NCBI GenBank assembly: GCA_963559865.1
Contig: CAUWMC010000003.1
Span: 25,056-89,055, forward strand
Length of the DNA stretch: 64,000 nt
Direction of reading: 5' to 3'
From: an uncultured Helicobacter sp.
GTDB taxonomy: Bacteria > Campylobacterota > Campylobacteria > Campylobacterales > Helicobacteraceae
This document shows, piece by piece, positions 11,416 through 53,373 of the stretch. The notes below the pieces were generated by a model. That model was not told the DNA's origin, made no database searches, and saw only the letters and a list, made by a program, of their open reading frames with translations. Within the stretch, counting starts at the first letter, position 1; each line of letters starts with the position of its first letter. Both the position numbers and the translations under genes were made by a program.

Positions 11416-12657
11416 ATGGCAGATTTTCCTAAACTCATCAGCTACCAAGAAGCCATCAATATTTTAAATACCATTCCACTAGAGCCACTAGGCACGCAGC
11501 AGGTGCATTTTAAAAACGCCTTGAATAGAATCTTAGCTCAAGATATAAAAGCCCCTTGTAATGTCCCAGCCTACCCTACTGCGGCGATGGACGGCTATGC
11601 GATTATGTTTGAGGACTTAGAGCTACTTGCCACACAAGGACTAGCTATCCTCCCGCCAAATAAAGCTGGAAACCCCACGCGCCCCAATCTCACAAAAGCC
11701 CACGCGATAAAAACTTTCACCGGCTCTATAATGCCACTTAATGCCGATACACTTGTCATTGTAGAGCATATCACACTGAAAGATGACAGAATCTTTCTTA
11801 ACGCTCCCATAGATTCTATCCGTAAATCCCAGTGGATACGCCAAGTTGGCGATAACTATAAGGAAAATGAGATTTTACTCCATAAAGGCGATAAAATTGG
11901 TGCTTTTGAAGTAGGCTTGTTAGCAGAGCTTAATCAAAGCTTTGTGCAAGTGTATCAAAAGGCAAAAGTTGGAATCTTGTGTGTGGGCGATGAGATCATT
12001 GAAGTGGGGCAAGATAGCCCACATCAAAATGTCGTGCGGAGTGTCAATACACACCTTTTAGAATCTTTGCTTTTGCAAATGGGACAAGAGCCTATCATTT
12101 ATCCTATCACAAAAGATGATAAAACTCTTATCAAAGCAGCCTACACTCAAGCGTTAAAAGAGTGTGATATGCTACTTACCACCGGTGGTATGAGTATGGG
12201 AGATTATGACTATACACAAGAGGTAATGCAAGAATTAAGCCAGATTCACTTCAAAGGTGTGCGATTAAAACCGGGCAAACCTGTTGCATTCGGGAGTGCT
12301 AACAATACGCTTATTTTGGGCTTACCGGGCTTTCCAAATTCCTGTGCGGTAACTTTTTTACTCTTTGGCACAACTCTCCTTGCTCGTTTGCACAATAGAA
12401 TCCACAAGCCCCTATGCCTTGAAGCAACCCTGCTTGAAGAATGCAAACGCAGTGATTCTCGCCTAGAGTTTCGTGCTTGTGAAGTGTTTTCACACAATGG
12501 CAAATTAAGCATAAGTTTTGCAAGTAAAAAATCTATACAAAGCTCAATGGTGAATAATCTCACGCACAACACTGCCCTTGCAATTTTAGAAGAAAATGGC
12601 AGTGATTTACCCAAAGGTGCGATAGTGCAAGTGATGTTCCTTCATCATCTTGTGTAA
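11416..12657 (+). CDS. moeA: Molybdopterin molybdotransferase
   Basis: AAMDGYA, FTGSIMP, TTGGMSMGDYD, KPGKP and GLPGFP motifs. Confidence 0.94.
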   Translation: MADFPKLISYQEAINILNTIPLEPLGTQQVHFKNALNRILAQDIKAPCNVPAYPTAAMDGYAIMFEDLELLATQGLAILPPNKAGNPTRPNLTKAHAIKTFTGSIMPLNADTLVIVEHITLKDDRIFLNAPIDSIRKSQWIRQVGDNYKENEILLHKGDKIGAFEVGLLAELNQSFVQVYQKAKVGILCVGDEIIEVGQDSPHQNVVRSVNTHLLESLLLQMGQEPIIYPITKDDKTLIKAAYTQALKECDMLLTTGGMSMGDYDYTQEVMQELSQIHFKGVRLKPGKPVAFGSANNTLILGLPGFPNSCAVTFLLFGTTLLARLHNRIHKPLCLEATLLEECKRSDSRLEFRACEVFSHNGKLSISFASKKSIQSSMVNNLTHNTALAILEENGSDLPKGAIVQVMFLHHLV

Positions 12658-12684
12658 AATCTCAAGCAAAAGGAGTTTTTATTT

Positions 12685-12909
12685 ATGGTAAAAGTTGAAT
12701 TTTTAGGACCGATGAGCTATATCCCCTCTATGGAGCTAGAAGTAAGCACATTGCAGGAGTTAAAGGAAATTTTAGGCAAAGATTCTACTTTGCAGCAATG
12801 GCTTGAGATTAGTGCGGTGGCTGTTAATGATGAGATTGTTGAAAATCTCTCACACCCACTACATAATGGCGATAAGATAGCCTTACTCCCTCCTGTGTGT
12901 GGTGGATAA
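12685..12909 (+). CDS. moaD: Molybdopterin synthase sulfur carrier
   Basis: 74-aa ubiquitin-like protein ending LLPPVCGG. Confidence 0.93.
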   Translation: MVKVEFLGPMSYIPSMELEVSTLQELKEILGKDSTLQQWLEISAVAVNDEIVENLSHPLHNGDKIALLPPVCGG

Positions 12910-13517
12910 TGCTAAGTTTATATAACGGAGCATTGCCAACGGACAAGCTTTACACACAATGGGAAGCAATGGCTCAAAGTAAAAATTACGGAGCGGTGAG
13001 TATTTTTAGCGGTATCGTGCGAAGAGAGCAGAATCTAAAATCTCAAAACCCAAAAACGCCGACTGCGGAAATATCTTTAGATAATTTCAAGGGTTGTGTA
13101 GATTCTTGTGCGAGAAGCTACCTAAGCGGTAGTGCCGATGCACAAGAAGCAAACTCCCTTGAAATTGCTGAAAAGATGACGCAGATTCTAGATTCTAGTG
13201 ATATAGAAGCGCTGAGTTTTGATATTTATAAGCCACTGCTAGAAAAGTGGTTTAACTCGTGGCAAGAGAAAGCCCATAATGTGGGGGCTTATGTATGTAT
13301 GGCACATAGTATAGGTGATGTGCCTTGTGGCAAAAGCTCTTTTATGTGTGCTATTATCTCTTCACATCGCAAGGTTGCACTTGACTTGTATGCGGAGTTT
13401 GTAGAGGATTTTAAAGCCAATGCACCTATTTGGAAGTATGACATTATCAATGGGCAAAGAATCTACGCCAAAACGCGAAGCAAAGCCCTTAAAGGAAGTG
13501 GTATCTTATGCAGCTAG
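12909..13517 (+). CDS. moaE: Molybdopterin synthase catalytic subunit carrying a ~57-aa in-frame insertion
   Basis: FSGIVR...LSFDIY, HSIGDV, HRKVAL and KANAPIWK motifs. ATG 12909 overlaps the moaD stop. Confidence 0.9.
   Translation: MLSLYNGALPTDKLYTQWEAMAQSKNYGAVSIFSGIVRREQNLKSQNPKTPTAEISLDNFKGCVDSCARSYLSGSADAQEANSLEIAEKMTQILDSSDIEALSFDIYKPLLEKWFNSWQEKAHNVGAYVCMAHSIGDVPCGKSSFMCAIISSHRKVALDLYAEFVEDFKANAPIWKYDIINGQRIYAKTRSKALKGSGILCS
13029..13199. repeat. Palindromic (REP/MITE-like) element inserted in frame in moaE
   Basis: Nested inverted repeats: aatttcaaggg/cccttgaaatt, ttcttgtgc/gcacaagaa, ctacc/ggtag and ctgcg/cgcag. The ends are agaatcta and tagattct. Confidence 0.75.
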
Positions 13518-14065
13518 ATTCTAAGCCCATTATTTTTGCCTTTAGTGGAAGAAGCAATAGTGGCAAAACGACACTGATTTGCAAATTAAGTGAATATTTT
13601 AAAGCAAGGGGGGCAAAGGTAGCTATTTTCAAGCACGACCCAAAGGATAAGGCAGTCTTTGACACGCAGGGCAAAGATTCATATAAGTTTTTTCAAAGTG
13701 CTGATGCAGTAGCTCTTATCTCGCCTACACGCACTATTTTGCAAATAAAAAATGGCAATGGGAGTGAAGATTCTAAAAACCCTGCTGAAATGAGAGCATT
13801 TTATACATATATAGAGCTTTTTAAAGACTATGATTTTATCTTTATTGAGGGGTTAAAGACCCTGCCTTTTAAACGCATCGTTGTCGCACGAGAGAATATA
13901 GAATCTGATTATATCCCTTATGCGGACGCTTTTGCCATAGATGAGAGTGTGGGTAATGCTGAGATTCTGCCAAGCCATATTCCTAAGCTTACTCTCAATA
14001 ATACCGCACAAATTGCGGATTTCATTTTACAATCTACAACAAAGGATAACCAATGCAAACAATAA
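13508..14065 (+). CDS. mobB: Molybdopterin-guanine dinucleotide biosynthesis protein B
   Basis: FSGRSNSGKTTLI P-loop, IFKHDPK and FIEGLK motifs. Confidence 0.9.
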   Translation: MQLDSKPIIFAFSGRSNSGKTTLICKLSEYFKARGAKVAIFKHDPKDKAVFDTQGKDSYKFFQSADAVALISPTRTILQIKNGNGSEDSKNPAEMRAFYTYIELFKDYDFIFIEGLKTLPFKRIVVARENIESDYIPYADAFAIDESVGNAEILPSHIPKLTLNNTAQIADFILQSTTKDNQCKQ

Positions 14066-14583
14066 AAATCGGTGTGCTTGTCTCAAGCGATAGAGCCTCT
14101 CAAGGAATCTATGAAGATGAATCTGGCAAGGCAATACAAGAAATATTAGAGAGTTTTATTCTCAATCCTTGCGAGTATCATTATCATATTATCGCCGATG
14201 AGCAAAGACTTATAGAATCTTATCTCAAAGATTTGAGCGATAAACAAGGCTGTGATCTCATCATCACCACAGGTGGCACAGGACCGGCAAAGCGAGATGT
14301 AACACCCGAAGCCACGCAATCTGTGTGCCAAAAAATGCTTCCCGGATTTGGAGAGCTTATGCGGAGCGTGAGTTTAAAATATGTCCCCACGGCGATTTTA
14401 TCACGCCAAAGTGCGGGGATTCGCGGAAAATCTTTGATTATCAATCTCCCGGGCAAACCAAAAAGTATTAAAGAATGCCTTGAGGCTGTATTCCCCGCTG
14501 TGCCTTATTGTCTTGATTTAATTGAGGCAGGATATATTCACGCAAATGCTGAACATATCACTATATTCCGCCCAAAAGCCTAA
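14053..14583 (+). CDS. mog: Molybdopterin adenylyltransferase
   Basis: [23 protein letters not shown] and NLPGKP motifs. Confidence 0.94.
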
Positions 14584-14597
14584 ATAAAAGGAATCCT

Positions 14598-15068
14598 ATG
14601 CAGCTCACACATTTAAATGAACACAACAACCCCACAATGGTAGATGTCAGCCCAAAGGAGATAAGCCATAGAGAAGCTTATGCAAGTGGCATTATCACTA
14701 TGAGCAAAGAAGCCTTTGAAGCAGCTATCAATCATACAGGTAAAAAAGGAGCTATCACGCAAACTGCCATTATTGCCGCTATTATGGGTAGTAAAAAAAC
14801 AAGTGAGCTTATCCCTATGTGTCATCCGCTTATGCTCAACAAAGTTGATGTTGATATTACACCAAATTCTAGCTCCTGCTCCATTAAGCTTGGTGTGCGT
14901 GTGAAATGTGAGGGTAAAACAGGCGTGGAAATGGAAGCACTCACCGGCGTAAGCATAGGGCTTTTAACCATCTATGATATGCTTAAAGCCATTGATAAAG
15001 CTATGAGTATGAGTGAGATTCAGCTTGAATCTAAAAGTGGCGGCAAAAGTGGTGATTTTCATAGATAG
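14598..15068 (+). CDS. moaC: Cyclic pyranopterin monophosphate synthase
   Basis: LTHL, MVDVS, LIPMCHP, GVEMEAL and KSGGKSG motifs. Confidence 0.95.
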
Positions 15069-46315: not shown

Positions 46316-47207
46316 ATTCACGCTTAGATTCACACTCATTGTCTTATATATGCTGTGTGCTATGCCTTATGCTTTTGGAGCGGGTATTGATGTCAATCCC
46401 GATAAACGCGGTTGGCATATCGAGCTAAAGCGTATCTCAACAAATCTTAGCTCCACTACCATTAGCGGGCAAGATGAGTATGTGAAGTTTTCAGATAGCC
46501 GTATTAAGGGTGATTCACAGCTTATTGCACAAGGACATTTTGATTTGGGACTTGACTTTTACGCACCGCGTTATATTGTGTTTAACTCCACTCTTGCAGA
46601 GTATGGACGCACAATCCTTGTAAGAGAAAATGAAAAAATCAGCAACACCACACTAGATAGAATCTTAATATCCACAGACTATACACACAGAATCTGGTAT
46701 ATCCCCACATTTGCCGGAGGCTTTGAAATTGGTCCATCTATCAAGGCAAACTATCAAACCGGCTTTGAAAACAAACGGCAAATTACGCGGTTGAATGCTG
46801 GAATCAAGCTCTTTGATGGGGTGTATATCAAAGATTTACATCTTAATGCCTTTAGTGAAAAGGACTTTGCCCTAAAAACAGAATCTGAAAACTACGGCTG
46901 GGAGGGTGGCATCAAGCTTGAATATAAATTTCAACAAGGCTCAAAGTTTTATTGCTTTACAAGCTTCCGCCATTACCTTTATAGCTCCGCTCCAAAAGAA
47001 TACAATCCACTCTATCAGCTAGAGGTGGAAGTCCGTTTAGATACAAAATTTTACAAAAGATTAGCCATTGCTCCATTTGTGAAGTATTATGCCCTGCAAG
47101 GACGCAATATCCCAACAAAAGGCGATAGCCTTCTACTTGGATTCTCACTCTCATTTGGGCATATTTTCCTTGATGCAACAAAAAAGCAGGAACTAGCCCC
47201 GCTATAA
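46308..47207 (+). CDS. Putative outer-membrane beta-barrel protein
   Basis: Signal peptide and many amphipathic beta strands; start overlaps the rarA stop. Confidence 0.55.
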   Translation: MPRFTLRFTLIVLYMLCAMPYAFGAGIDVNPDKRGWHIELKRISTNLSSTTISGQDEYVKFSDSRIKGDSQLIAQGHFDLGLDFYAPRYIVFNSTLAEYGRTILVRENEKISNTTLDRILISTDYTHRIWYIPTFAGGFEIGPSIKANYQTGFENKRQITRLNAGIKLFDGVYIKDLHLNAFSEKDFALKTESENYGWEGGIKLEYKFQQGSKFYCFTSFRHYLYSSAPKEYNPLYQLEVEVRLDTKFYKRLAIAPFVKYYALQGRNIPTKGDSLLLGFSLSFGHIFLDATKKQELAPL

Positions 47208-47270
47208 AGCTTAAATTTACAAGAAAACTACAATGGCATAAAACAAAGCACGATAGGAAAGCTTAAAATG

Positions 47271-47284
47271 TTTTTTTTTTTTTT
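47271..47284. repeat. T14 homopolymer in a convergent intergenic region
   Basis: 14 consecutive T followed by gTAAAAT. Confidence 0.8.
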
Positions 47285-47479
47285 GTAAAATCCCAGAAAC
47301 TCTACAATCTAACATATTGTATAGAATCTTATGGGCTTGTAGATTTATATTGTATAGATTGCAAAAGTCTTTTAGATTCTAAATCCTAACACCTATTACC
47401 GCTATTTGTCTTAAAGCAAGGCAAAATGGAAAGAAAAATGCTAAAAAATGATAACTATCTTGATGATAAAATTTAAAAT

Positions 47480-48811
47480 CTACAACCCATATCTAGCGAT
47501 TTTATGACGCAAAACCTCTATATTCATACCAAGCATATCACTTGCTTTTTGTAAATCATTTTGAGATTGCAAAAGCGTTTGGGCGATAAGCTGTTTTTCT
47601 AGCTCACTTATGCCCTGCTTTGGTGAAGTGCCTCCACCAAAGGCTTGATTGCGAGATTCTAAACACAAATCCTTTGGGCTTATCTCTTCACTTTCACTTA
47701 AAATCCCAGCCCGCTCCACGACTGAAAGCAACTCTCGCACATTACCATACCATTCATACGAGAGCAACGCCTCTTTTGCCTCTTTGGAAAATCTCTTTTG
47801 CCCTAAATCATATTGCACGCACACAGATTCTAGCTTCCACTCACTTAGAGGCAAAATCTCCTCTTTTCTTTCTTTGAGTGGAGGGACAGGCAAAGGAATG
47901 GTCTGCAAACGGAAAAATAAATCTTCCCTAAACTCATTTTTGGCAATTTTAGCCTGAATATTGGCATTTGTCGCGGAAATAAAACGCACATCAATTTTAA
48001 TGGGCTTTGAGCTTCCTAAGCGTGTAACACTCTTTTCTTGCAAAACACGCAAAAGCTTAGCTTGAAGAGCTAAAGGCATTTCGCCAATCTCATCTAAAAA
48101 CACACTTCCACCATTAGCGTCTTCTAAAATACCCGGTTTTGGGCTTGTAGCGTCTGTAAAAGCTCCTTTTTCATAGCCAAAAAGTTCGGATTCTAATAAA
48201 TGCTCGGGGATTGCTGCCATATTAATGGCGATAAATGGTGCATTAGCACGAGATGAATTTTTATGAATGAAGTTTGCAAACACATCTTTACCAACCCCGC
48301 TTTGCCCCAAAATCAGCACACTTGCATCTGTTTTAGCCACTTTAAGTGCAATATTTTTTGCTTCCTCTAATTTTGGAGAAGTGGATATAAAGTCTTTAGT
48401 AAGATTCTGTGATTTATGAGAATGCGTAGAATCTTGAGCTTTTGTGGGGCTTTGCGTGATTGTATGGACGCGGTGGCTTCGCTCTATGGCTTCAATGAGT
48501 GCTTCTATCTCAAAACCTTTCACAAGAAAGTCTTTCACGCCCAAGCGGATAGACTTAATCGCATTTTGCACGGAGGCATTACCTGTGATGACAATGGCTT
48601 CATATCGCCCATTTAGCTCTTGTAAAAAGCTTAATCCGTCCATTTGAGGCATATTGATATCAGTAATCACAAGATGAAAACTATCATCAAGCTTTTTTAG
48701 AGCATCTTTTGGATTCTTAAAGCTTACAATTTCATACTGCGAGTAGTCTTCAAACGCCGTTTCAAGCGACTTTCTATAATTAATATCATCTTCTATAATG
48801 GCAATTTTCAT
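47480..48811 (-). CDS. flgR: Sigma54-dependent flagellar response regulator FlgR
   Basis: Receiver domain (TDINMP), GQSGVGKD, ESELFGYEKGAFTDA and DLFFRL motifs; downstream of gyrA-hyp as in H. pylori. Confidence 0.92.
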   Translation of the reverse strand: MKIAIIEDDINYRKSLETAFEDYSQYEIVSFKNPKDALKKLDDSFHLVITDINMPQMDGLSFLQELNGRYEAIVITGNASVQNAIKSIRLGVKDFLVKGFEIEALIEAIERSHRVHTITQSPTKAQDSTHSHKSQNLTKDFISTSPKLEEAKNIALKVAKTDASVLILGQSGVGKDVFANFIHKNSSRANAPFIAINMAAIPEHLLESELFGYEKGAFTDATSPKPGILEDANGGSVFLDEIGEMPLALQAKLLRVLQEKSVTRLGSSKPIKIDVRFISATNANIQAKIAKNEFREDLFFRLQTIPLPVPPLKERKEEILPLSEWKLESVCVQYDLGQKRFSKEAKEALLSYEWYGNVRELLSVVERAGILSESEEISPKDLCLESRNQAFGGGTSPKQGISELEKQLIAQTLLQSQNDLQKASDMLGMNIEVLRHKIARYGL

Positions 48812-49281
48812 CTCTCCCCCTTGGCTAAAATATACATTACAATGCTTTTATCAACAAGCTTTGCTCTAACTCTTGTGGGAGCTATCTCAAGGCTTACTCT
48901 TGAGCTTATGGCGTTATTTCTACCTTTTGTGCTTTCACGCACATTGACTTCGTGCGTATATAAACACTCAAGCACCTGCTCCTTTTCTTGCTTCAAAATA
49001 GATGAGATAAAATAGGGCATATCGTCCATAATAAGATACCTACTCGCATCAATCTCGCATTCTTTTGTGATATGATACCCGCTCTTTTCCTGCATTACTT
49101 GCGACACGCGGTAACGCTCACGCTGAGCTAGATTGTCTTGACTAACAATCTTGTATGAGATAAGCAGCTCAACTTCAACTCCATCAAACCGCTCATCATA
49201 AGGGAGCAAATCAAGCTTGTTTGCCCCAAATGCACAAAGCCAAGTGCCAAGCATAAACCACGCTACAAGTTTATAACGCAT
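48808..49281 (-). CDS. Conserved hypothetical exported protein (HP0702-like position)
   Basis: Signal-like N-terminus; lies between gyrA and flgR with an ATGA overlap. Confidence 0.65.
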   Translation of the reverse strand: MRYKLVAWFMLGTWLCAFGANKLDLLPYDERFDGVEVELLISYKIVSQDNLAQRERYRVSQVMQEKSGYHITKECEIDASRYLIMDDMPYFISSILKQEKEQVLECLYTHEVNVRESTKGRNNAISSRVSLEIAPTRVRAKLVDKSIVMYILAKGER

Positions 49282-49300
49282 AGAATCTCCTATTCTTGCA

Positions 49301-51778
49301 CTAATCTTCTTGTGTCAATCCCTCTTGTTCTTCTTCATCTTCTTTTGGCTCTTTGGGGCAAACATTGGCATAAGCTACCTTATCATTGCCAACATTGACA
49401 ATTTTCACGCCACTTGTATTACGCCCTGCTTCGCGTATAGCTTCAGTATCTACGCGTATCATTTTCCCCGAGCTTGTAAGCACCATCAAATCCATATTTT
49501 CATCATTAATATTCACTACACTTACAAGCTTACCTGTTTTTGGTGTAAGCTTCATTACAATCACACCCTTGCCCGCACGGCTTTGGAGACGATACTCTCC
49601 TGCTAGTGTTTGCTTGCCAATACCTTGCTCACTCACGGTCAAGAGCTTATCTGTATCACTTGTGATTGTTGTCGCAGCAATGACACAATCTTCACTTGCT
49701 TTAAACTTAATACCCGTTACCCCTCGGCTCACACGCCCAATCTCGCGTAGCTCATCAATGCCAAAGCGGATACACATACCTTGGAAAGTAGCGATAAACA
49801 ACTCTTTGACAGCAGAATCCACAATATGTGCCGTTACAAGCTCATCGTTCTCATCAAGGTTAATCGCCCTTACACCCACGCTGCGAATATTACTATATTC
49901 TTTAAGATTTGTGCGTTTCACAATACCATTTTTGGTAAAGAATACAAGCGATTTATCATCGTTAAAATCAGTCGTTGTGATAGTTGCCATAATCTTTTCA
50001 TCAGGGGAAAGATTAATAAGATTTACAACTGCCTTACCAATAGCTGTGCGTCCTGCTTCTGGAATCTTATAGACTTTGAGCCAATAGAGCTGTCCTTTGT
50101 TGGTAACAAACATAATCGTATCGTGCGTATTTGCCACAAAGAAAGATTCAATAAAGTCATCTTCGTGCGTATTTCCGCTAATCTTACCCTTGCCACCGCG
50201 GTTTTGCTTCTCATAAGTTTTAAGCAACACTCGCTTAACATAGCCACGATGACTCATTGTTACCACAACTTTTTCATTTGGGATTAAATCCTCTATATCA
50301 ATGCTGTCATAATCCTCTTCAATTTGTGTCTTACGCTTTGAGCTAAACTTTTCTTTTATCTCCAATAGCTCATCTTTAACAATACTCTTAAGCTTTTCTT
50401 CACTTCTAAGAATAGATTCTAAATACGCAATTTGCTCTTGCAGCTCGGCATATTCAGCATTAATCTTGTCTCGCTCCAACCCTGTAAGGCGTTGCAAACG
50501 CATCTCAAGAATAGCTTTAGCTTGCAATTCACTGAGCTTAAATCTCTCTACCAAAGCATTTTTTGCTTCTTCTGAATCTTTTGATGAACGAATAATGCGG
50601 ATAATCTCATCAATATTATCAAGTGCGATGATTAAACCCTCCAAAATATGCGCTCTAGCCTTAGCCTTTTCAAGCTCAAAAATGCTTCTACGGATAATAA
50701 TAGTCTTACGATGAGAGATGAAAATCTGCAATAGCTCAAGGAGATTAAAAATTTTTGGCTCTTTATTATTAATCGCAAGAAGGATAATTCCAAAGGTGCT
50801 TTCCATCGTTGTGGATTTAAAAAGATGATTCAGCACTATCTCACTCATCGCATCGCGTTTTAGCTCAATAACTACACGAATCCCTTCCCTATCGCTTTCA
50901 TCTCGCACTTCTGCAATGCCCTCAATAATTTTCTCTCTAGCAAGTTCGGATATTTGCTCCACAAGCTTGGCTTTATTCACCTGATAGGGCACTTCATCAA
51001 CAACAATCACATCTTTGGTTTTTGTTTTTTCAATATGCACTTTAGCGCGCACACGGATTCTACCTCGCCCCGTGCGATAAGCCTCTAAGATTCCCGCCTT
51101 GCCATAGATAATACCACCTGTTGGAAAGTCTGGTCCTTGAACAATATCAAGCACATCATCAACATTTTGCGTGTTGTTATCAATCACAAAAATGAGTGCA
51201 TCAATAATCTCATCAATGCGGTGTGGTGGGATAGAAGTCGCCATACCCACAGCAATACCGCTTGAGCCATTTACAAGCAAATTTGGGATTCTACTAGGTA
51301 GGACATCTGGCTCACTTAGCGTGTTGTCATAGTTTGGCACAAACTCCACCGTGTCTTTATCAATATCGCGTAGCATTTCTTCACTCGCACTTGTCATACG
51401 CGCTTCTGTATAACGCATAGCCGCCGCACCATCGCCATCAATAGAGCCAAAGTTCCCCTGCCCATCTACAAGCTCAAGTCGCATAGAAAAGTCCTGTGCC
51501 ATACGCACAAGCGCATCATACACAGCCATATCGCCGTGCGGGTGGTATTTACCAATCACATCACCCACAATTCTCGCACTTTTCTTATAAGGGCGGCGGG
51601 GGGATAGGCTTAGCTCATTCATTGCATACAAGATTCTTCTATGCACCGGTTTAAGCCCATCTTTAGCATCTGGTAAGGCTCTCCCCACAATAACGCTCAT
51701 TGAATAATCAAGATAACTCTCTTTAATAGAATCATCAATCTTTACTTCTATGCTTTTATCTTCTAGTAAGCTATCCAT
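49301..51778 (-). CDS. gyrA: DNA gyrase subunit A
   Basis: [22 protein letters not shown] and QNRGGKG (GyrA box). Confidence 0.98.
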
Positions 51779-51898
51779 TCTCTCTCCAAAATGATTTTTT
51801 AAGGCAGGATTCTAGCCCAAATTGACTAAAAATAGGCTTACTTCTAAGCAAAAAGGATTATAATAGCCCCTTATTATTTCTCTCCCAAAGGTCTTACA

Positions 51899-52510
51899 AT
51901 GGATAGTATAGAAAAAATCATTCTTCTTTGCCTTATGGGCTTTTTTGGTGCAATCACACCCGGACCCGATATTTTACTCACGCTCAAAACAACCTTGCGT
52001 TGTGGAATCTTGCAAGGATTCAAGGTGCTTTTTGGCATAGCAAGTGGGTGGTTTGTGTATTTGGGAATTATTTATGTGGGTTTAAGCCATTGGCTCAATA
52101 CGCCCATTACACAGCTTATACTTAGCTTTTTGGGTGGAGGCTATTTGCTCTATCTTGCTTTTGCTATGCTCAATGCCACGCCCTACACGCTAGATTCTAC
52201 ACACAATGCTAGAAAAGATGGATTCTTACAGGGCTTAATACTCAATATCTCTAATCCCAAAGCTATTTTATTTTTTGTCTTTTTGGTTACACCCTTTGTT
52301 GATGAAGACATTAAACTTGGGCTTGTAGCATTGTGGTGTTCACTTTTTATGGCTTTTGTCTTTGTGATTTTGAGTGCAAATATAGCAAGAAGTTACATTA
52401 ATGCAAAAACTTTTTATGTGATTGATAGAATCTGTGGAATCTTATTTGCCATTTTTGCGTGGCTTTTATGTTTTGAATGTGGGGAGCTTGTTGCTACATT
52501 ATTGTCTTAG
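51899..52510 (+). CDS. LysE/RhtB family exporter
   Basis: ITPGPD and LNISNPKA motifs; six hydrophobic segments. Confidence 0.9.
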   Translation: MDSIEKIILLCLMGFFGAITPGPDILLTLKTTLRCGILQGFKVLFGIASGWFVYLGIIYVGLSHWLNTPITQLILSFLGGGYLLYLAFAMLNATPYTLDSTHNARKDGFLQGLILNISNPKAILFFVFLVTPFVDEDIKLGLVALWCSLFMAFVFVILSANIARSYINAKTFYVIDRICGILFAIFAWLLCFECGELVATLLS

Positions 52511-52527
52511 CCTTTTAAAGCTAGATT

Positions 52528-53373
52528 CTACCATAAACGCAATTCTGTATTTGTCTTTTTATACAGGCTATCACTCTTCCCATCAAGGTCATATTCCACT
52601 GCAAAGCCATATTTTATATCCGCCACACCTGATTTTTTAATACGGATATTCTCATAAGTATCCGTTGGGATTTTTAGACTGCCCACGGACGCATTTGAAC
52701 GCGGTGGAATCTTCTTATTCACTTCAGTTTCACTGATTAAATCTCCATTAATATACAATGCAACATAACTGATAGTAGCAAACTTATCACTTGCATTATT
52801 AATACTAATATTGACACTTCCTTGCCCAAGATTAAATGAAGAAGCATTGAGCGTGATGTCAGAGTTTTTAATACTCACAGCAGGCAAGGAGCGAGTAGCC
52901 AAAATATAACGCGCTGGTGTATCACCTTTGTGATTTTCCGCATACATATCCGCACCACGAGAAAGCAAAAGACTTATCATTTCAGGATTCTTTCTCATCA
53001 CCGCATAGTGCAAAGGCGTATTTCCCAAATGCTCATCAGCCACCTTAACCTTCGCCCCTTTATCAATCAATGCCTTAGCAAATTTAAGATTATTCAAAGC
53101 TACCACCTTAAGTAATGGCGTCTCGCCGTGAGAGACTGCATTCACATCAGCACCGCGTTCAATCAAAAGATACAAAATCTCCAAATTACCCTTTCTTGCC
53201 GCATCATAAAGTGGGGTGCTACCACGCAGTCTTGCTTCAATATCAGCCCCAAGATTTATGCCCTTACGCACCTCTGTATAATTATTGCTAAAAAGCAGAT
53301 AATTATATCTATCATTTGCCCCATAGCAACTCATACTTAAAATAAAGCCTAATAGTATAAAATAGATTCTCAT
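52528..53373 (-). CDS. Exported ankyrin-repeat protein with a beta-rich C-terminal domain
   Basis: Signal peptide and three G-x-TPL ankyrin units (GSTPLYDAA, GETPLLKVV, GNTPLHYAV). Confidence 0.88.
   Translation of the reverse strand: MRIYFILLGFILSMSCYGANDRYNYLLFSNNYTEVRKGINLGADIEARLRGSTPLYDAARKGNLEILYLLIERGADVNAVSHGETPLLKVVALNNLKFAKALIDKGAKVKVADEHLGNTPLHYAVMRKNPEMISLLLSRGADMYAENHKGDTPARYILATRSLPAVSIKNSDITLNASSFNLGQGSVNISINNASDKFATISYVALYINGDLISETEVNKKIPPRSNASVGSLKIPTDTYENIRIKKSGVADIKYGFAVEYDLDGKSDSLYKKTNTELRLW

What the first reader, a model, noticed from the sequence alone, without database searches (positions are those of the whole stretch)
13029..13199. Palindromic DNA element inserted in frame inside moaE and bounded by the iterated motif
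Seen: 57 extra codons (QNLKSQ...ILDSS) lie between GIVRRE and DIEALSFDIY, where Helicobacter MoaE normally has a short loop. The DNA forms a nested hairpin: ctgcg/cgcag (13063/13180), aatttcaaggg/cccttgaaatt (13083/13156), ttcttgtgc/gcacaagaa (13103/13140) and ctacc/ggtag (13118/13128). The ends are agaatcta (13030) and tagattct (13189). Established: Rickettsia palindromic elements insert in frame into proteins. Inference: this is a non-autonomous REP/MITE-like element that targets or duplicates AGAWTCT sites and creates new peptide sequence in a housekeeping enzyme. That would link the iterated motif to a mobile-repeat system.
Basis: partly seen in the sequence, partly recalled or inferred. 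Interest (0 to 1): 0.8.

Follow-up and report, generated by a model that had tools for sequence, protein, structure and literature searches.

The report
In-frame palindromic repeat inside Helicobacter moaE
The extra 56 codons in this Helicobacter's moaE gene are one copy of a hairpin-forming DNA repeat that sits, readable in frame, inside dozens of unrelated genes of the H. cinaedi group, a cultivable counterpart of the Rickettsia palindromic elements whose way of spreading is still unknown.

Summary
Window 13029-13199 lies in frame in moaE and folds into a nested hairpin (RNA -59.3 kcal/mol, z = -7.1). Net insertion is 168 bp (56 codons). Seven congeners have an empty site. H. cinaedi and H. 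labetoulli share the insert, and H. magdeburgensis keeps only its left end.

It is not single-copy. A 122-nt core (13063-13184) occurs at least 50-60 times in this 1.9-Mb genome and 46-60 times in the three close relatives. Other species of the genus hold 0-17 copies.

- 19 of 31 full-length cores lie in real genes (AlaRS, ABC-F, LysE and others). All 19 are open in one frame, against 3 of 12 non-genic copies.
- Arms pair in 88.9% of cells and 32 of 40 pairs show double-sided changes, while copies are only 64% alike (median).
- G·U does not exceed A·C, so the symmetry reads as a DNA-level palindrome.
- Copies exchange inner hairpin modules by gene conversion.

No Y1/RAYT, TnpB or rve transposase was found. 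AGAWTCT flanks many copies, but it is a genus-wide hyper-abundant word, also present in genomes without the element. The "targets or duplicates AGAWTCT" idea is therefore not supported.

Verdict: an RPE-like family, unreported in the literature I could search, whose mobilisation is unknown.

The parts
12909..13517 (+). moaE (molybdopterin synthase catalytic subunit), 202 aa, host gene of the insert
   Evidence: ORF list. Pfam MoaE matches aa 96-170. 3RPF aligns to aa 2-44 and 98-200. The AF2 model superposes on 3RPF with TM 0.92 normalised to the target.
13029..13196 (+). Whole inserted unit, 168 bp = 56 codons (boundaries uncertain by about 3 nt), absent from seven congeners
   Evidence: Protein and DNA alignments of moaE orthologues. 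BLAST and nhmmer homology to other copies extends over query positions 1-168.
13029..13062 (+). Left flank of the unit: AGAATCT word (13030-13036) plus an A/C-rich linker (...CAAAACCCAAAAACGCCGA)
   Evidence: Similar linkers precede the core in most copies.
13063..13184 (+). 122-nt core hairpin of the repeat family (CTGCGG...CGCAG)
   Evidence: nhmmer and the covariance model R1 score it at 130 bits. In alignment A1 the 40 pairs are 88.9% paired.
13063..13067 (+). Helix 1, 5' arm (pairs with 13180-13184)
13071..13097 (+). Helix 2, 5' arm (pairs with 13153-13177); 16 of its 21 pairs show double-sided changes among copies
13103..13111 (+). Helix 3, 5' arm (pairs with 13140-13148); swapped as a block at the orthologous LysE locus between G000 and G002
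13118..13132 (+). Helix 4 and tip (CTACC-TAAGC-GGTAG); replaced by TTTAT-TAGAT-ATAAA in the H. labetoulli moaE copy
13183..13196 (+). Right flank: two tandem AGATTCT words (13183-13189 and 13190-13196); the first overlaps the last 2 nt of the core
11416..15068 (+). Context: the Moco operon moeA (11416-12657), moaD (12685-12909), moaE, mobB (13508-14065), mog/moaB (14053-14583), moaC (14598-15068)

Best explanation
The segment is one copy of a lineage-specific family of non-autonomous palindromic DNA repeats. The family has a 122-nt core hairpin; the full unit is about 165-170 bp once the A/C-rich linker and AGAWTCT words are included. It is greatly expanded in the Helicobacter cinaedi / H. labetoulli / H. 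magdeburgensis clade, to which this genome belongs.

Shown:
- The unit entered moaE before these species split.
- It landed in the loop between two beta-strands, just after the conserved GxVR motif.
- It has stayed there because the consensus has essentially one stop-free reading frame.
- The ribosome therefore reads through it and adds 56 residues without breaking the MoaE fold.

Inferred: in the protein the extra residues form a mostly disordered excursion from the surface.

Shown:
- Genic copies are filtered to be open and in frame. Non-genic copies are not.
- Each copy keeps its two arms complementary although copies have diverged strongly from each other.
- Inner hairpin modules are exchanged between copies by gene conversion.
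- Cores are lost by deletion at the base of the hairpin.

Inferred: the hairpin is needed at the DNA level, as single-stranded or cruciform DNA, either for propagation or through arm-to-arm correction. It is not an RNA motif.

Unknown: the enzyme or route that creates new copies. It is not a Y1/RAYT, TnpB-type or rve-type transposase encoded in these genomes.
For: Copy number:
- BLAST and iterated nhmmer find 45-51 copies in the genome.
- The covariance model finds at least 60 in G000 and G002, 48 in H. cinaedi and 46 in H. magdeburgensis. Nine other species of the genus hold 0-17. Outside the genus there are essentially none, except 10 in one other genus.

Empty site:
- Seven congeners have an empty moaE site. 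Three genomes share the filled site. One has an internally deleted copy.

Hosts and frame:
- Hosts are real and unrelated: ABC-F, TupA ATP-grasp, Lnb_N, LysE, AlaRS, AMP-binding, DUF7897, IlvD, GuaA, a histidine kinase and a DNA methylase.
- All 19 genic cores are open in the canonical frame, against 3 of 12 non-genic cores (Fisher p = 1e-5). 18 of 19 have the host's orientation.
- Among 21 aligned cores, that frame is open in 15; each of the other five frames is open in 0-5.

Hairpin conservation:
- 88.9% of cells are paired, 32 of 40 pairs have double-sided changes, 0 of 500 shuffles reach this, and slid controls give 39-51%.
- Copies are only 64% identical at the median and 92% at most.
- G·U 32 against A·C 24 shows no RNA-strand bias.

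Exchange and loss:
- Positions 71-137 of the H. labetoulli moaE copy match a different locus (the C20 type) with one mismatch, while its ends match the G000 moaE copy.
- Both arms of helix 3 are swapped at the orthologous LysE locus.
- A 'CTGCAG' footprint at C15:14614 marks precise loss of a core.

Protein:
- AF2 gives pLDDT above 90 for the MoaE fold and below 50 for insert residues 43-74. The model superposes on 3RPF with TM 0.92.
- moaE remains under purifying selection: 37 synonymous against 17 non-synonymous codon changes versus H. cinaedi.
- The 202-aa form is found on 46 H. cinaedi contigs.
Against: - No clean target-site duplication and no sharply defined end was found. Polymorphic sites between G000 and G002 have messy junctions or remnants. 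Fresh insertion has therefore not been caught, and some presence/absence differences are clearly deletions.
- No pair of copies in this genome is more than 92% identical, so there is no sign of very recent transposition.
- No cognate transposase was found.
- Translation of the insert is inferred from frame conservation only.
- Conservation of the hairpin in resident copies is not what a purely selfish, decaying element predicts.
Confidence: 0.8

Rival explanations
1. The family spreads without any transposase. New copies arise by illegitimate or microhomology-mediated recombination and gene conversion of imported or resident DNA, as expected in naturally transformable Helicobacter. The ubiquitous AGAWTCT words on both sides would serve as recombination or uptake anchors. 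The palindrome would be maintained by intrastrand (arm-to-arm) mismatch correction.
For: - No Y1, TnpB or rve transposase occurs in the high-copy genomes, and the assembly has no repeats longer than 900 bp.
- Conversion between copies is documented.
- AGAWTCT is enriched beside cores: 20 of 31 upstream and 12 of 31 downstream, against about 0.1 expected.
- The non-Watson-Crick cells show no G·U excess.
- Orthologous cores diverge either much less (1.6%) or much more (19%) than their flanks (5-11%). This fits a low point-substitution rate plus block replacement.
Against: - The empty moaE sites have no exact AGAWTCT to anchor recombination.
- The motif is equally abundant in genomes without the element.
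- No mechanism is known that would place a 168-bp unit at many unrelated sites with so regular a 122-nt core.
- Only three transposase families were searched.
Confidence: 0.25
2. The hairpin is a functional RNA or host-level cis element, for example an mRNA stabiliser, an RNase III site or a translational pause. On this view it has been domesticated, and host selection keeps the structure.
For: - The RNA fold is very stable.
- Hairpins are retained in old, diverged resident copies.
- The moaE insert diverges less than its host gene between G000 and H. cinaedi: 8 of 168 against 64 of 441, p = 6e-4. The flanks diverge normally right up to the junction.
Against: - G·U pairs are no commoner than A·C (32 against 24, p = 0.35), unlike typical structured RNAs.
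- There is no Rfam match.
- The lower divergence is not general: five other orthologous copies average 7.4% against 6.8% in their flanks.
- Copies sit in unrelated genes and in intergenic DNA with no common context.
- The copy-number difference between sister species (0 to 60) argues against a host function.
Confidence: 0.1
3. The repeated unit is a selected protein module, such as a shared interaction or localisation peptide, moved between genes. The DNA symmetry would be incidental.
For: A recognisable peptide (AEVSL..F.GC....SYLSGND.....S.KS.KETTQ) recurs in the same frame in many proteins.
Against: - Twelve of 31 full-length copies are non-genic, and 9 of those carry stops or frameshifts.
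- Double-sided base changes preserve pairing while changing the peptide (for example SYLSGSAD to SLLDINDK).
- The peptide matches no Pfam family.
- AF2 gives low confidence and disorder for it.
- Codon changes in the insert are 3 synonymous to 4 non-synonymous, against 37 to 17 in the host.
Confidence: 0.04

Closest known systems
Rickettsia palindromic elements (RPE; Ogata et al. 2000, as summarised in PMC2229807 and PMC10969869)
   Same: - Palindromic repeats of 105-150 bp that form long stem-loops.
- Dispersed in intergenic DNA and, unusually often, inside conserved protein genes.
- One open frame is fused in frame to the host protein.
- Insertion at tolerated, surface positions.
- No known transposase and no clear target-site duplication.
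   Different: - A different phylum (Campylobacterota, a free-living and cultivable enterohepatic Helicobacter).
- Sequence homology to RPEs was neither expected nor tested.
- The core length is strictly 122 nt.
- Arm-arm complementarity is documented as maintained well above inter-copy identity.
- Inner hairpin modules are swapped between copies.
- The copies are flanked by a genus-wide hyper-abundant 7-mer.
REPIN/REP elements mobilised by RAYT (Y1) transposases
   Same: - Hairpin-forming repeats of about 100 nt.
- The stem is preserved by paired changes, implying a single-stranded DNA hairpin as the relevant form.
- Vertically persistent populations of diverged copies.
   Different: - REPINs are extragenic and depend on a RAYT gene. 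Here 61% of full-length copies are genic and no PF01797 protein exists in any of the 13 genomes of the genus.
- No GTAG/CGTC head tetranucleotide was looked for.
Classical bacterial MITEs with intragenic copies (ERIC/IRU, YPAL/RU-2, 107-bp Correia; PMC2229807)
   Same: - Size below 200 bp.
- Terminal inverted repeats.
- Stable stem-loop transcripts.
- Some copies are fused in frame to ORFs.
   Different: - Those families usually show TA termini, target-site duplications or a parent IS with matching ends. None of these was found here.
- The genic fraction here is far higher than for those families.
Neisseria intergenic mosaic elements (NIME: RS units bounded by dRS3 repeats) and Caulobacter CIR repeats carrying GANTC (own knowledge for NIME; CIR as described in PMC2229807)
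   Same: - Variable repeat modules bounded by a short, highly iterated inverted-repeat word.
- AGAWTCT contains GANTC.
   Different: - Those are intergenic.
- Here the bounding word is genus-wide and independent of the element, and the modules are read in frame inside genes.

Membership tests
RPE-like in-frame palindromic repeat (functional class) | Palindromic unit of about 100-170 bp with a stable stem-loop | tested here: met
   122-nt core within a 168-bp unit. z = -7.1 as RNA and -6.0 as DNA. Forty-pair consensus hairpin.
RPE-like in-frame palindromic repeat (functional class) | Many dispersed copies, both intergenic and inside unrelated conserved protein genes | tested here: met
   About 50 to at least 60 copies. 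Of 31 full-length cores, 19 are genic and 12 non-genic. Hosts were confirmed by Pfam.
RPE-like in-frame palindromic repeat (functional class) | Genic copies keep the host frame open through one element-encoded frame | tested here: met
   All 19 genic copies are open, against 3 of 12 non-genic (p = 1e-5). Among 21 aligned cores the canonical frame is open in 15.
RPE-like in-frame palindromic repeat (functional class) | Orthologues without the insert exist (an insertion, not an ancestral segment) | tested here: met
   Seven congeners and more distant Campylobacterota lack it.
RPE-like in-frame palindromic repeat (functional class) | The insert is translated and the host protein stays functional | not testable with these tools
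Only indirect support is available: frame conservation, purifying selection on moaE and an intact predicted fold.
RPE proper (Rickettsia families RPE-1 to RPE-10) | Sequence homology to a described RPE family and occurrence in Rickettsia | not tested
   No RPE sequences were compared. The organism is a Helicobacter, so membership of the named families is not claimed.
Classical MITE | Target-site duplication at the insertion | tested here: inconclusive
   None is visible at moaE or at four polymorphic sites, but the empty sites are diverged or carry remnants.
Classical MITE | A parent autonomous IS with matching terminal repeats | tested here: not met
   The assembly has no repeat longer than 900 bp. 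G000 and H. cinaedi have no PF01797, PF07282 or PF00665. The IS607-like unit of G002/G012 is unrelated. Other transposase families were not searched.
REP/REPIN-RAYT system | A RAYT (Y1, PF01797) gene in the genome | tested here: not met
   0 of 13 genomes of the genus, while the control genomes score.
REP/REPIN-RAYT system | Extragenic location | tested here: not met
   19 of 31 full-length cores lie inside genes.
Structured RNA family (Rfam) | Match to a curated covariance model, with G·U-tolerant covariation | tested here: not met
   No Rfam hit at E <= 1. G·U 32 against A·C 24.

The most novel reading that the evidence does not exclude
Resident copies are not decaying junk. Their palindromy would be actively maintained, either by a hairpin-templated (arm-to-arm) correction and module-swapping process or by host-level selection. 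The family would spread by a transposase-independent route tied to the genus-wide AGAWTCT word, acting as an uptake or recombination signal. That would be a new mode of propagation for in-frame selfish DNA, in a cultivable bacterium where it can be tested.
Probability: 0.18. Interest if true: 0.85.

Novelty: new member of a known kind. Interest (0 to 1): 0.6.

Why it matters
In-frame invasion of housekeeping proteins by palindromic repeats has been a textbook oddity of Rickettsia since 2000. Rickettsia is an obligate intracellular bacterium in which the mobilisation mechanism and the effect on proteins have been hard to study.

Here the same phenomenon appears independently in enterohepatic Helicobacter, which are cultivable. 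Sister species range from 0 to at least 60 copies, many strain genomes are available, and filled, empty and partly deleted alleles exist for the same gene.

That makes several open questions directly testable:
- how such elements spread without a recognisable transposase;
- why their hairpins persist;
- how enzymes such as MoaE, AlaRS, IlvD or CarB tolerate 40-80 extra residues.

It also matters for annotation. These inserts split Pfam domains and inflate protein lengths in H. cinaedi-group genomes without being flagged.

Tried and rejected
- **RAYT/IS200 (PF01797), TnpB (PF07282) and rve (PF00665) transposases.** These are absent from the high-copy genomes. The only TnpB-bearing unit, which is IS607-like and occurs in G002/G012, has no similarity to the element.
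- **Self-BLAST for IS-sized repeats.** Nothing longer than 900 bp. Draft assemblies can collapse IS copies at contig ends, so this is weak.
- **Rfam.** No match.
- **A pre-existing target repeat.** I considered that the core inserts into a '...linker-CTGCAG-AWTCT' unit. Only one such solo unit exists in the genome (C15:14614), so it is better read as a deletion footprint.
- **A recent recombination import.** I considered this as the reason for the low divergence of the moaE insert against H. cinaedi. It is rejected because the flanks diverge normally right up to both junctions. The low divergence is also not general across loci.
- **AGAWTCT as a product of the element.** Rejected by the genus-wide counts.
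- **One concatenated 21-kb flank query against relatives.** Abandoned as impractical. I fetched 20 G002 copies instead and compared them locally with G000.
- **Literature.** Six searches and two reviews mention no such element in Helicobacter. The library lacks most subscription journals, so prior description cannot be excluded.

Full report
**The thing itself**

Window 13029-13199 lies inside a 202-codon ORF (ATG 12909, stop 13517). Its N-terminal 40 and C-terminal 105 residues are MoaE. Pfam MoaE matches residues 96-170, and H. pylori MoaE (PDB 3RPF) aligns to residues 2-44 and 98-200. The gene sits in a Moco operon: moeA, moaD, moaE, mobB, mog, moaC.

The 171 nt fold into one long nested hairpin:
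- as RNA, -59.3 kcal/mol against -32.7 +/- 3.7 for dinucleotide shuffles (z = -7.1);
- as DNA, z = -6.0;
- no shuffle did as well in either case.

**Insertion, not ancestral sequence**

Among 13 species of the same genus, the full insert is present in this genome, in G002 and in G008. G002 is H. labetoulli 48519 (MoaE 94% identical). G008 is H. cinaedi CCUG 18818 (90%).

G012 is H. magdeburgensis MIT 96-1001. It keeps only the left ~54 nt, followed by a deletion.

Seven other species read GIVRAE-NNI-SALSFDIY with nothing in between, as do more distant Campylobacterota. The net difference is 168 bp = 56 codons.

No target-site duplication is visible, and the empty sites contain no exact AGAWTCT; G003 has a one-mismatch AGAATCC there. 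The 202-aa form is annotated as MoaE and is found on 46 contigs of H. cinaedi, so the insert is fixed there.

**A repeat family**

BLAST of the 171 nt against the window's own 1.9-Mb assembly gives about 25 hits. Iterated nhmmer gives 45-51.

The conserved part is a 122-nt core, window 13063-13184, running CTGCGG...CGCAG. It is preceded by an A/C-rich linker, and AGAWTCT words often lie on both sides.

A covariance model of the core (R1) gives these counts:

| Genome | Copies |
|---|---|
| G000 (this genome) | at least 60 |
| G002 (H. labetoulli) | at least 60 |
| G008 (H. cinaedi) | 48 |
| G012 (H. magdeburgensis) | 46 |
| nine other species of the genus | 17, 11, 10, 7, 4, 4, 2, 0, 0 |

Of 18 genomes from other genera of the family and order, only one has a real set (10 copies), and three have single weak hits. 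The window itself holds only the moaE copy.

A profile of the encoded 40-residue peptide finds only 135 cluster representatives among 1.84 billion proteins. The family is therefore narrow in distribution.

**Copies inside genes**

Of 31 full-length cores in this genome, 19 lie in open frames of at least 150 aa. Eighteen of those have the host's orientation, and all 19 are stop-free in the same element frame (peptide AEVSL..F.GC...SYLSGND...S.KS.KETTQ).

Of the 12 non-genic cores, 9 carry stops or 1-2-nt length changes in that frame (Fisher p = 1e-5). Among 21 aligned cores that frame is open in 15, while each of the other five frames is open in 0-5.

Hosts are real and unrelated:
- ABC-F ATPase, TupA-like ATP-grasp, Lnb_N, LysE, AlaRS, an AMP-binding enzyme and DUF7897;
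- in the public representatives, IlvD, GuaA, an alpha/beta hydrolase, saccharopine dehydrogenase, a histidine kinase and a DNA methylase.

Pfam domains are split by the insert, for example LysE into 2 stretches and AlaRS into 3. This is the pattern described for Rickettsia palindromic elements (PMC2229807, PMC10969869). The contrast between genic and non-genic copies is my main argument that genic copies are translated and not skipped. It is an inference.

**The hairpin is maintained**

On an alignment of 21 cores (A1), a 40-pair structure is paired in 88.9% of cells. Thirty-two of 40 pairs show changes on both sides. None of 500 column shuffles reaches any of the five measures, and sliding the partner by 1-3 columns drops pairing to 39-51%.

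The copies themselves are only 64% identical at the median, 92% at most and 45% at least. Arm-arm complementarity therefore far exceeds what shared ancestry would leave.

Among non-Watson-Crick cells, G·U (32) is not commoner than A·C (24; p = 0.35). The symmetry is thus Watson-Crick on both strands, a DNA-level palindrome, and not a wobble-tolerant RNA structure. Rfam has no match.

**How the double-sided changes arise**

At least part of them comes from block exchange:
- *moaE in H. labetoulli.* The copy is identical to this genome's moaE copy at positions 1-70 and 138-168. At 71-137, the inner hairpin with both arms and the tip, it matches the copy at a different locus (the C20 type) with one mismatch.
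- *LysE locus.* Both arms of helix 3 differ as blocks between G000 and G002 while the flanks are 94% identical.
- *A nested piece.* At another locus a 33-nt in-frame mini-hairpin is present in one species and absent in the other.

Across five orthologous G000/G002 copies, core divergence is either very low (1.6%) or very high (up to 18.9%), against 5-11% in the flanks. That suggests a low point-substitution rate punctuated by conversion.

For moaE itself, the insert differs from H. cinaedi at 8 of 168 positions, against 64 of 441 in the rest of the gene (p = 6e-4). The flanks diverge normally right up to both junctions. That conservation is not general across loci.

**Gain and loss**

Twenty G002 copies were compared with G000. 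Several are absent from the orthologous G000 site although the flanks are 94-99% identical. The 'empty' alleles are not clean, however:
- one keeps both flanks joined by CTGCAG, a precise loss of the core at the base of the stem and the only such solo unit in the genome;
- one keeps the last ~15 nt of the core;
- two are replaced by unrelated short sequence.

Deletion is therefore documented. Fresh insertion is not.

**Mobilisation**

No Y1/RAYT/IS200 transposase exists in any of the 13 genomes. G000 and H. cinaedi have no TnpB and no rve integrase. The assembly has no repeat longer than 900 bp. The IS607-like unit found only in G002/G012 is unrelated to the element. As with RPEs, the agent is unknown. 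Other transposase families were not searched.

**The iterated motif**

AGAATCT and AGATTCT are the two commonest 7-mers of the genome: 5637 copies, one per 338 bp, against 30-860 for one-mismatch variants.

The word is equally over-represented in all 13 species, at 2815-6007 copies against 234-416 for the reversed control word. That includes the two species with zero copies of the hairpin element.

The reverse association is real. AGAWTCT lies 10-50 nt upstream of the core in 20 of 31 copies and at -2 to +25 downstream in 12 of 31, where about 0.1 is expected. Whether the words are part of the mobile unit, or the element settles in AGAWTCT-rich linker DNA, is open.

**The protein**

AlphaFold2 with a 32-sequence alignment gives these confidences:

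| Residues | pLDDT | Predicted state |
|---|---|---|
| 1-40 and 100-180 (MoaE fold) | above 90 | ordered MoaE fold |
| 43-74 (insert) | below 50 | no secondary structure |
| 76-96 (insert) | 50-66 | helix |

The model superposes on H. pylori MoaE with target-normalised TM 0.92 and rmsd 2.2 A. The insert leaves the fold between strands 29-36 and 101-106, two residues after the invariant Arg of GxVR.

moaE has stayed under purifying selection since the insertion: 37 synonymous to 17 non-synonymous codon changes against H. cinaedi. The insert itself shows 3 to 4. The 57-aa peptide matches no Pfam family.

**Classification**

The element works like an RPE. It is a palindromic unit of about 100-170 bp, dispersed, with one open frame, and tolerated in frame at surface positions of conserved proteins, with no known transposase.

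It is not a member of the named RPE families, because it occurs in a different phylum and homology was not tested. It fails the defining tests for REP/REPIN-RAYT: there is no RAYT, and most copies are genic. It also fails those for a classical MITE: no target-site duplication was seen and no parent IS was found.

I found no description of such elements in Helicobacter in six literature searches and two reviews of bacterial MITEs. The searchable library is incomplete.

I rate it a new member of a known kind. Two features go beyond the RPE description and deserve follow-up: active maintenance of arm complementarity, and modular swapping of inner hairpins.

Noticed in passing
whole genome; in the window e.g. 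13030-13036, 13183-13189, 13190-13196: AGAATCT and AGATTCT are the two commonest 7-mers of the genome: 5637 copies, one per 338 bp, about 15 times the base-composition expectation. The word is similarly enriched in all 13 species of the genus (2815-6007 copies, against 234-416 for the reversed control word). It contains GANTC. It looks like an uptake-, recombination- or methylation-related genus-wide word and is independent of the hairpin element.
   Followed up: partly
G000 contigs outside the window: C5:88649-91997 (AlaRS, 1116-aa open frame), C1:226357-229987 (CarB, 1210 aa), C4 minus strand, reverse-complement offsets 50478-52566 (IlvD, 696 aa; element copy at C4:64345-64478), C21 minus strand, offsets 47093-49340 (saccharopine-dehydrogenase-like, 749 aa; copies at C21:211-1316): Housekeeping proteins look far longer than I would expect for these enzymes (no orthologue lengths were measured). 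They carry several other recurrent in-frame peptide modules besides the hairpin element, for example HSVLSDKSGSASPCSLQRTPSASHSQDSHNPNLSSQSLECQ, TRIVDSTPCHFERSEKST.LECQDS and SNSKIVSEKCGLQGKSQGSYLSGNDRSDFSQLPHLSPQAELP. These are often bounded by AGAWTCT-encoded LES/LDS motifs. About 113 short repeated segments, 12 kb in all, have at least 5 copies in the genome.
   Followed up: partly
G000 C3 minus strand, just upstream of the window (reverse-complement offsets 96350-98756; element copy at C3:19692-19820); also representative P0026: GuaA (GMP synthase) carries a GNAT acetyltransferase domain inserted between its GATase and synthetase parts (802-aa ORF). A related public representative is 1653 aa long with several GNAT domains.
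   Followed up: no
window 129-237: A different palindromic repeat (GGGGTGGGGGATTTTTAAGGGGGAG...CCCCTCCCCCTTAAAG), with up to 8 BLAST hits per base elsewhere in the genome. It is unrelated to the 122-nt family.
   Followed up: no
G000 C15:14570-14640: A solo footprint: AGAATCTACAAGCTCAAAACGCCCA-CTGCAG-AATCTACA. Both flanks of an element are joined exactly where the 122-nt core is present in H. labetoulli. It is the only such unit in the genome.
   Followed up: yes
G000 C1:156781-156935, C1:173817-173971, C2:103335-103489: Variants of the core 155 nt long carry a nested 33-nt mini-hairpin (ATGCAGTTGCAAAGCAACAAATCCACACTTGCA, in frame). At C1:173817 it is present in G000 but absent from the orthologous H. 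labetoulli copy, with only 2 other differences in the core.
   Followed up: partly
G000 C1:~250300, C8:~63520, C1:~176070: Homopolymeric G/C tracts of 9-12 nt lie directly beside several element copies. They are possible phase-variable tracts.
   Followed up: no
G012:C35 (2040-bp contig), G002:C21:46102-46305: An IS607-like unit (211-aa plus 425-aa TnpB-type ORFs) occurs only in H. magdeburgensis and H. labetoulli. It is not found in this genome or in H. cinaedi CCUG 18818.
   Followed up: partly
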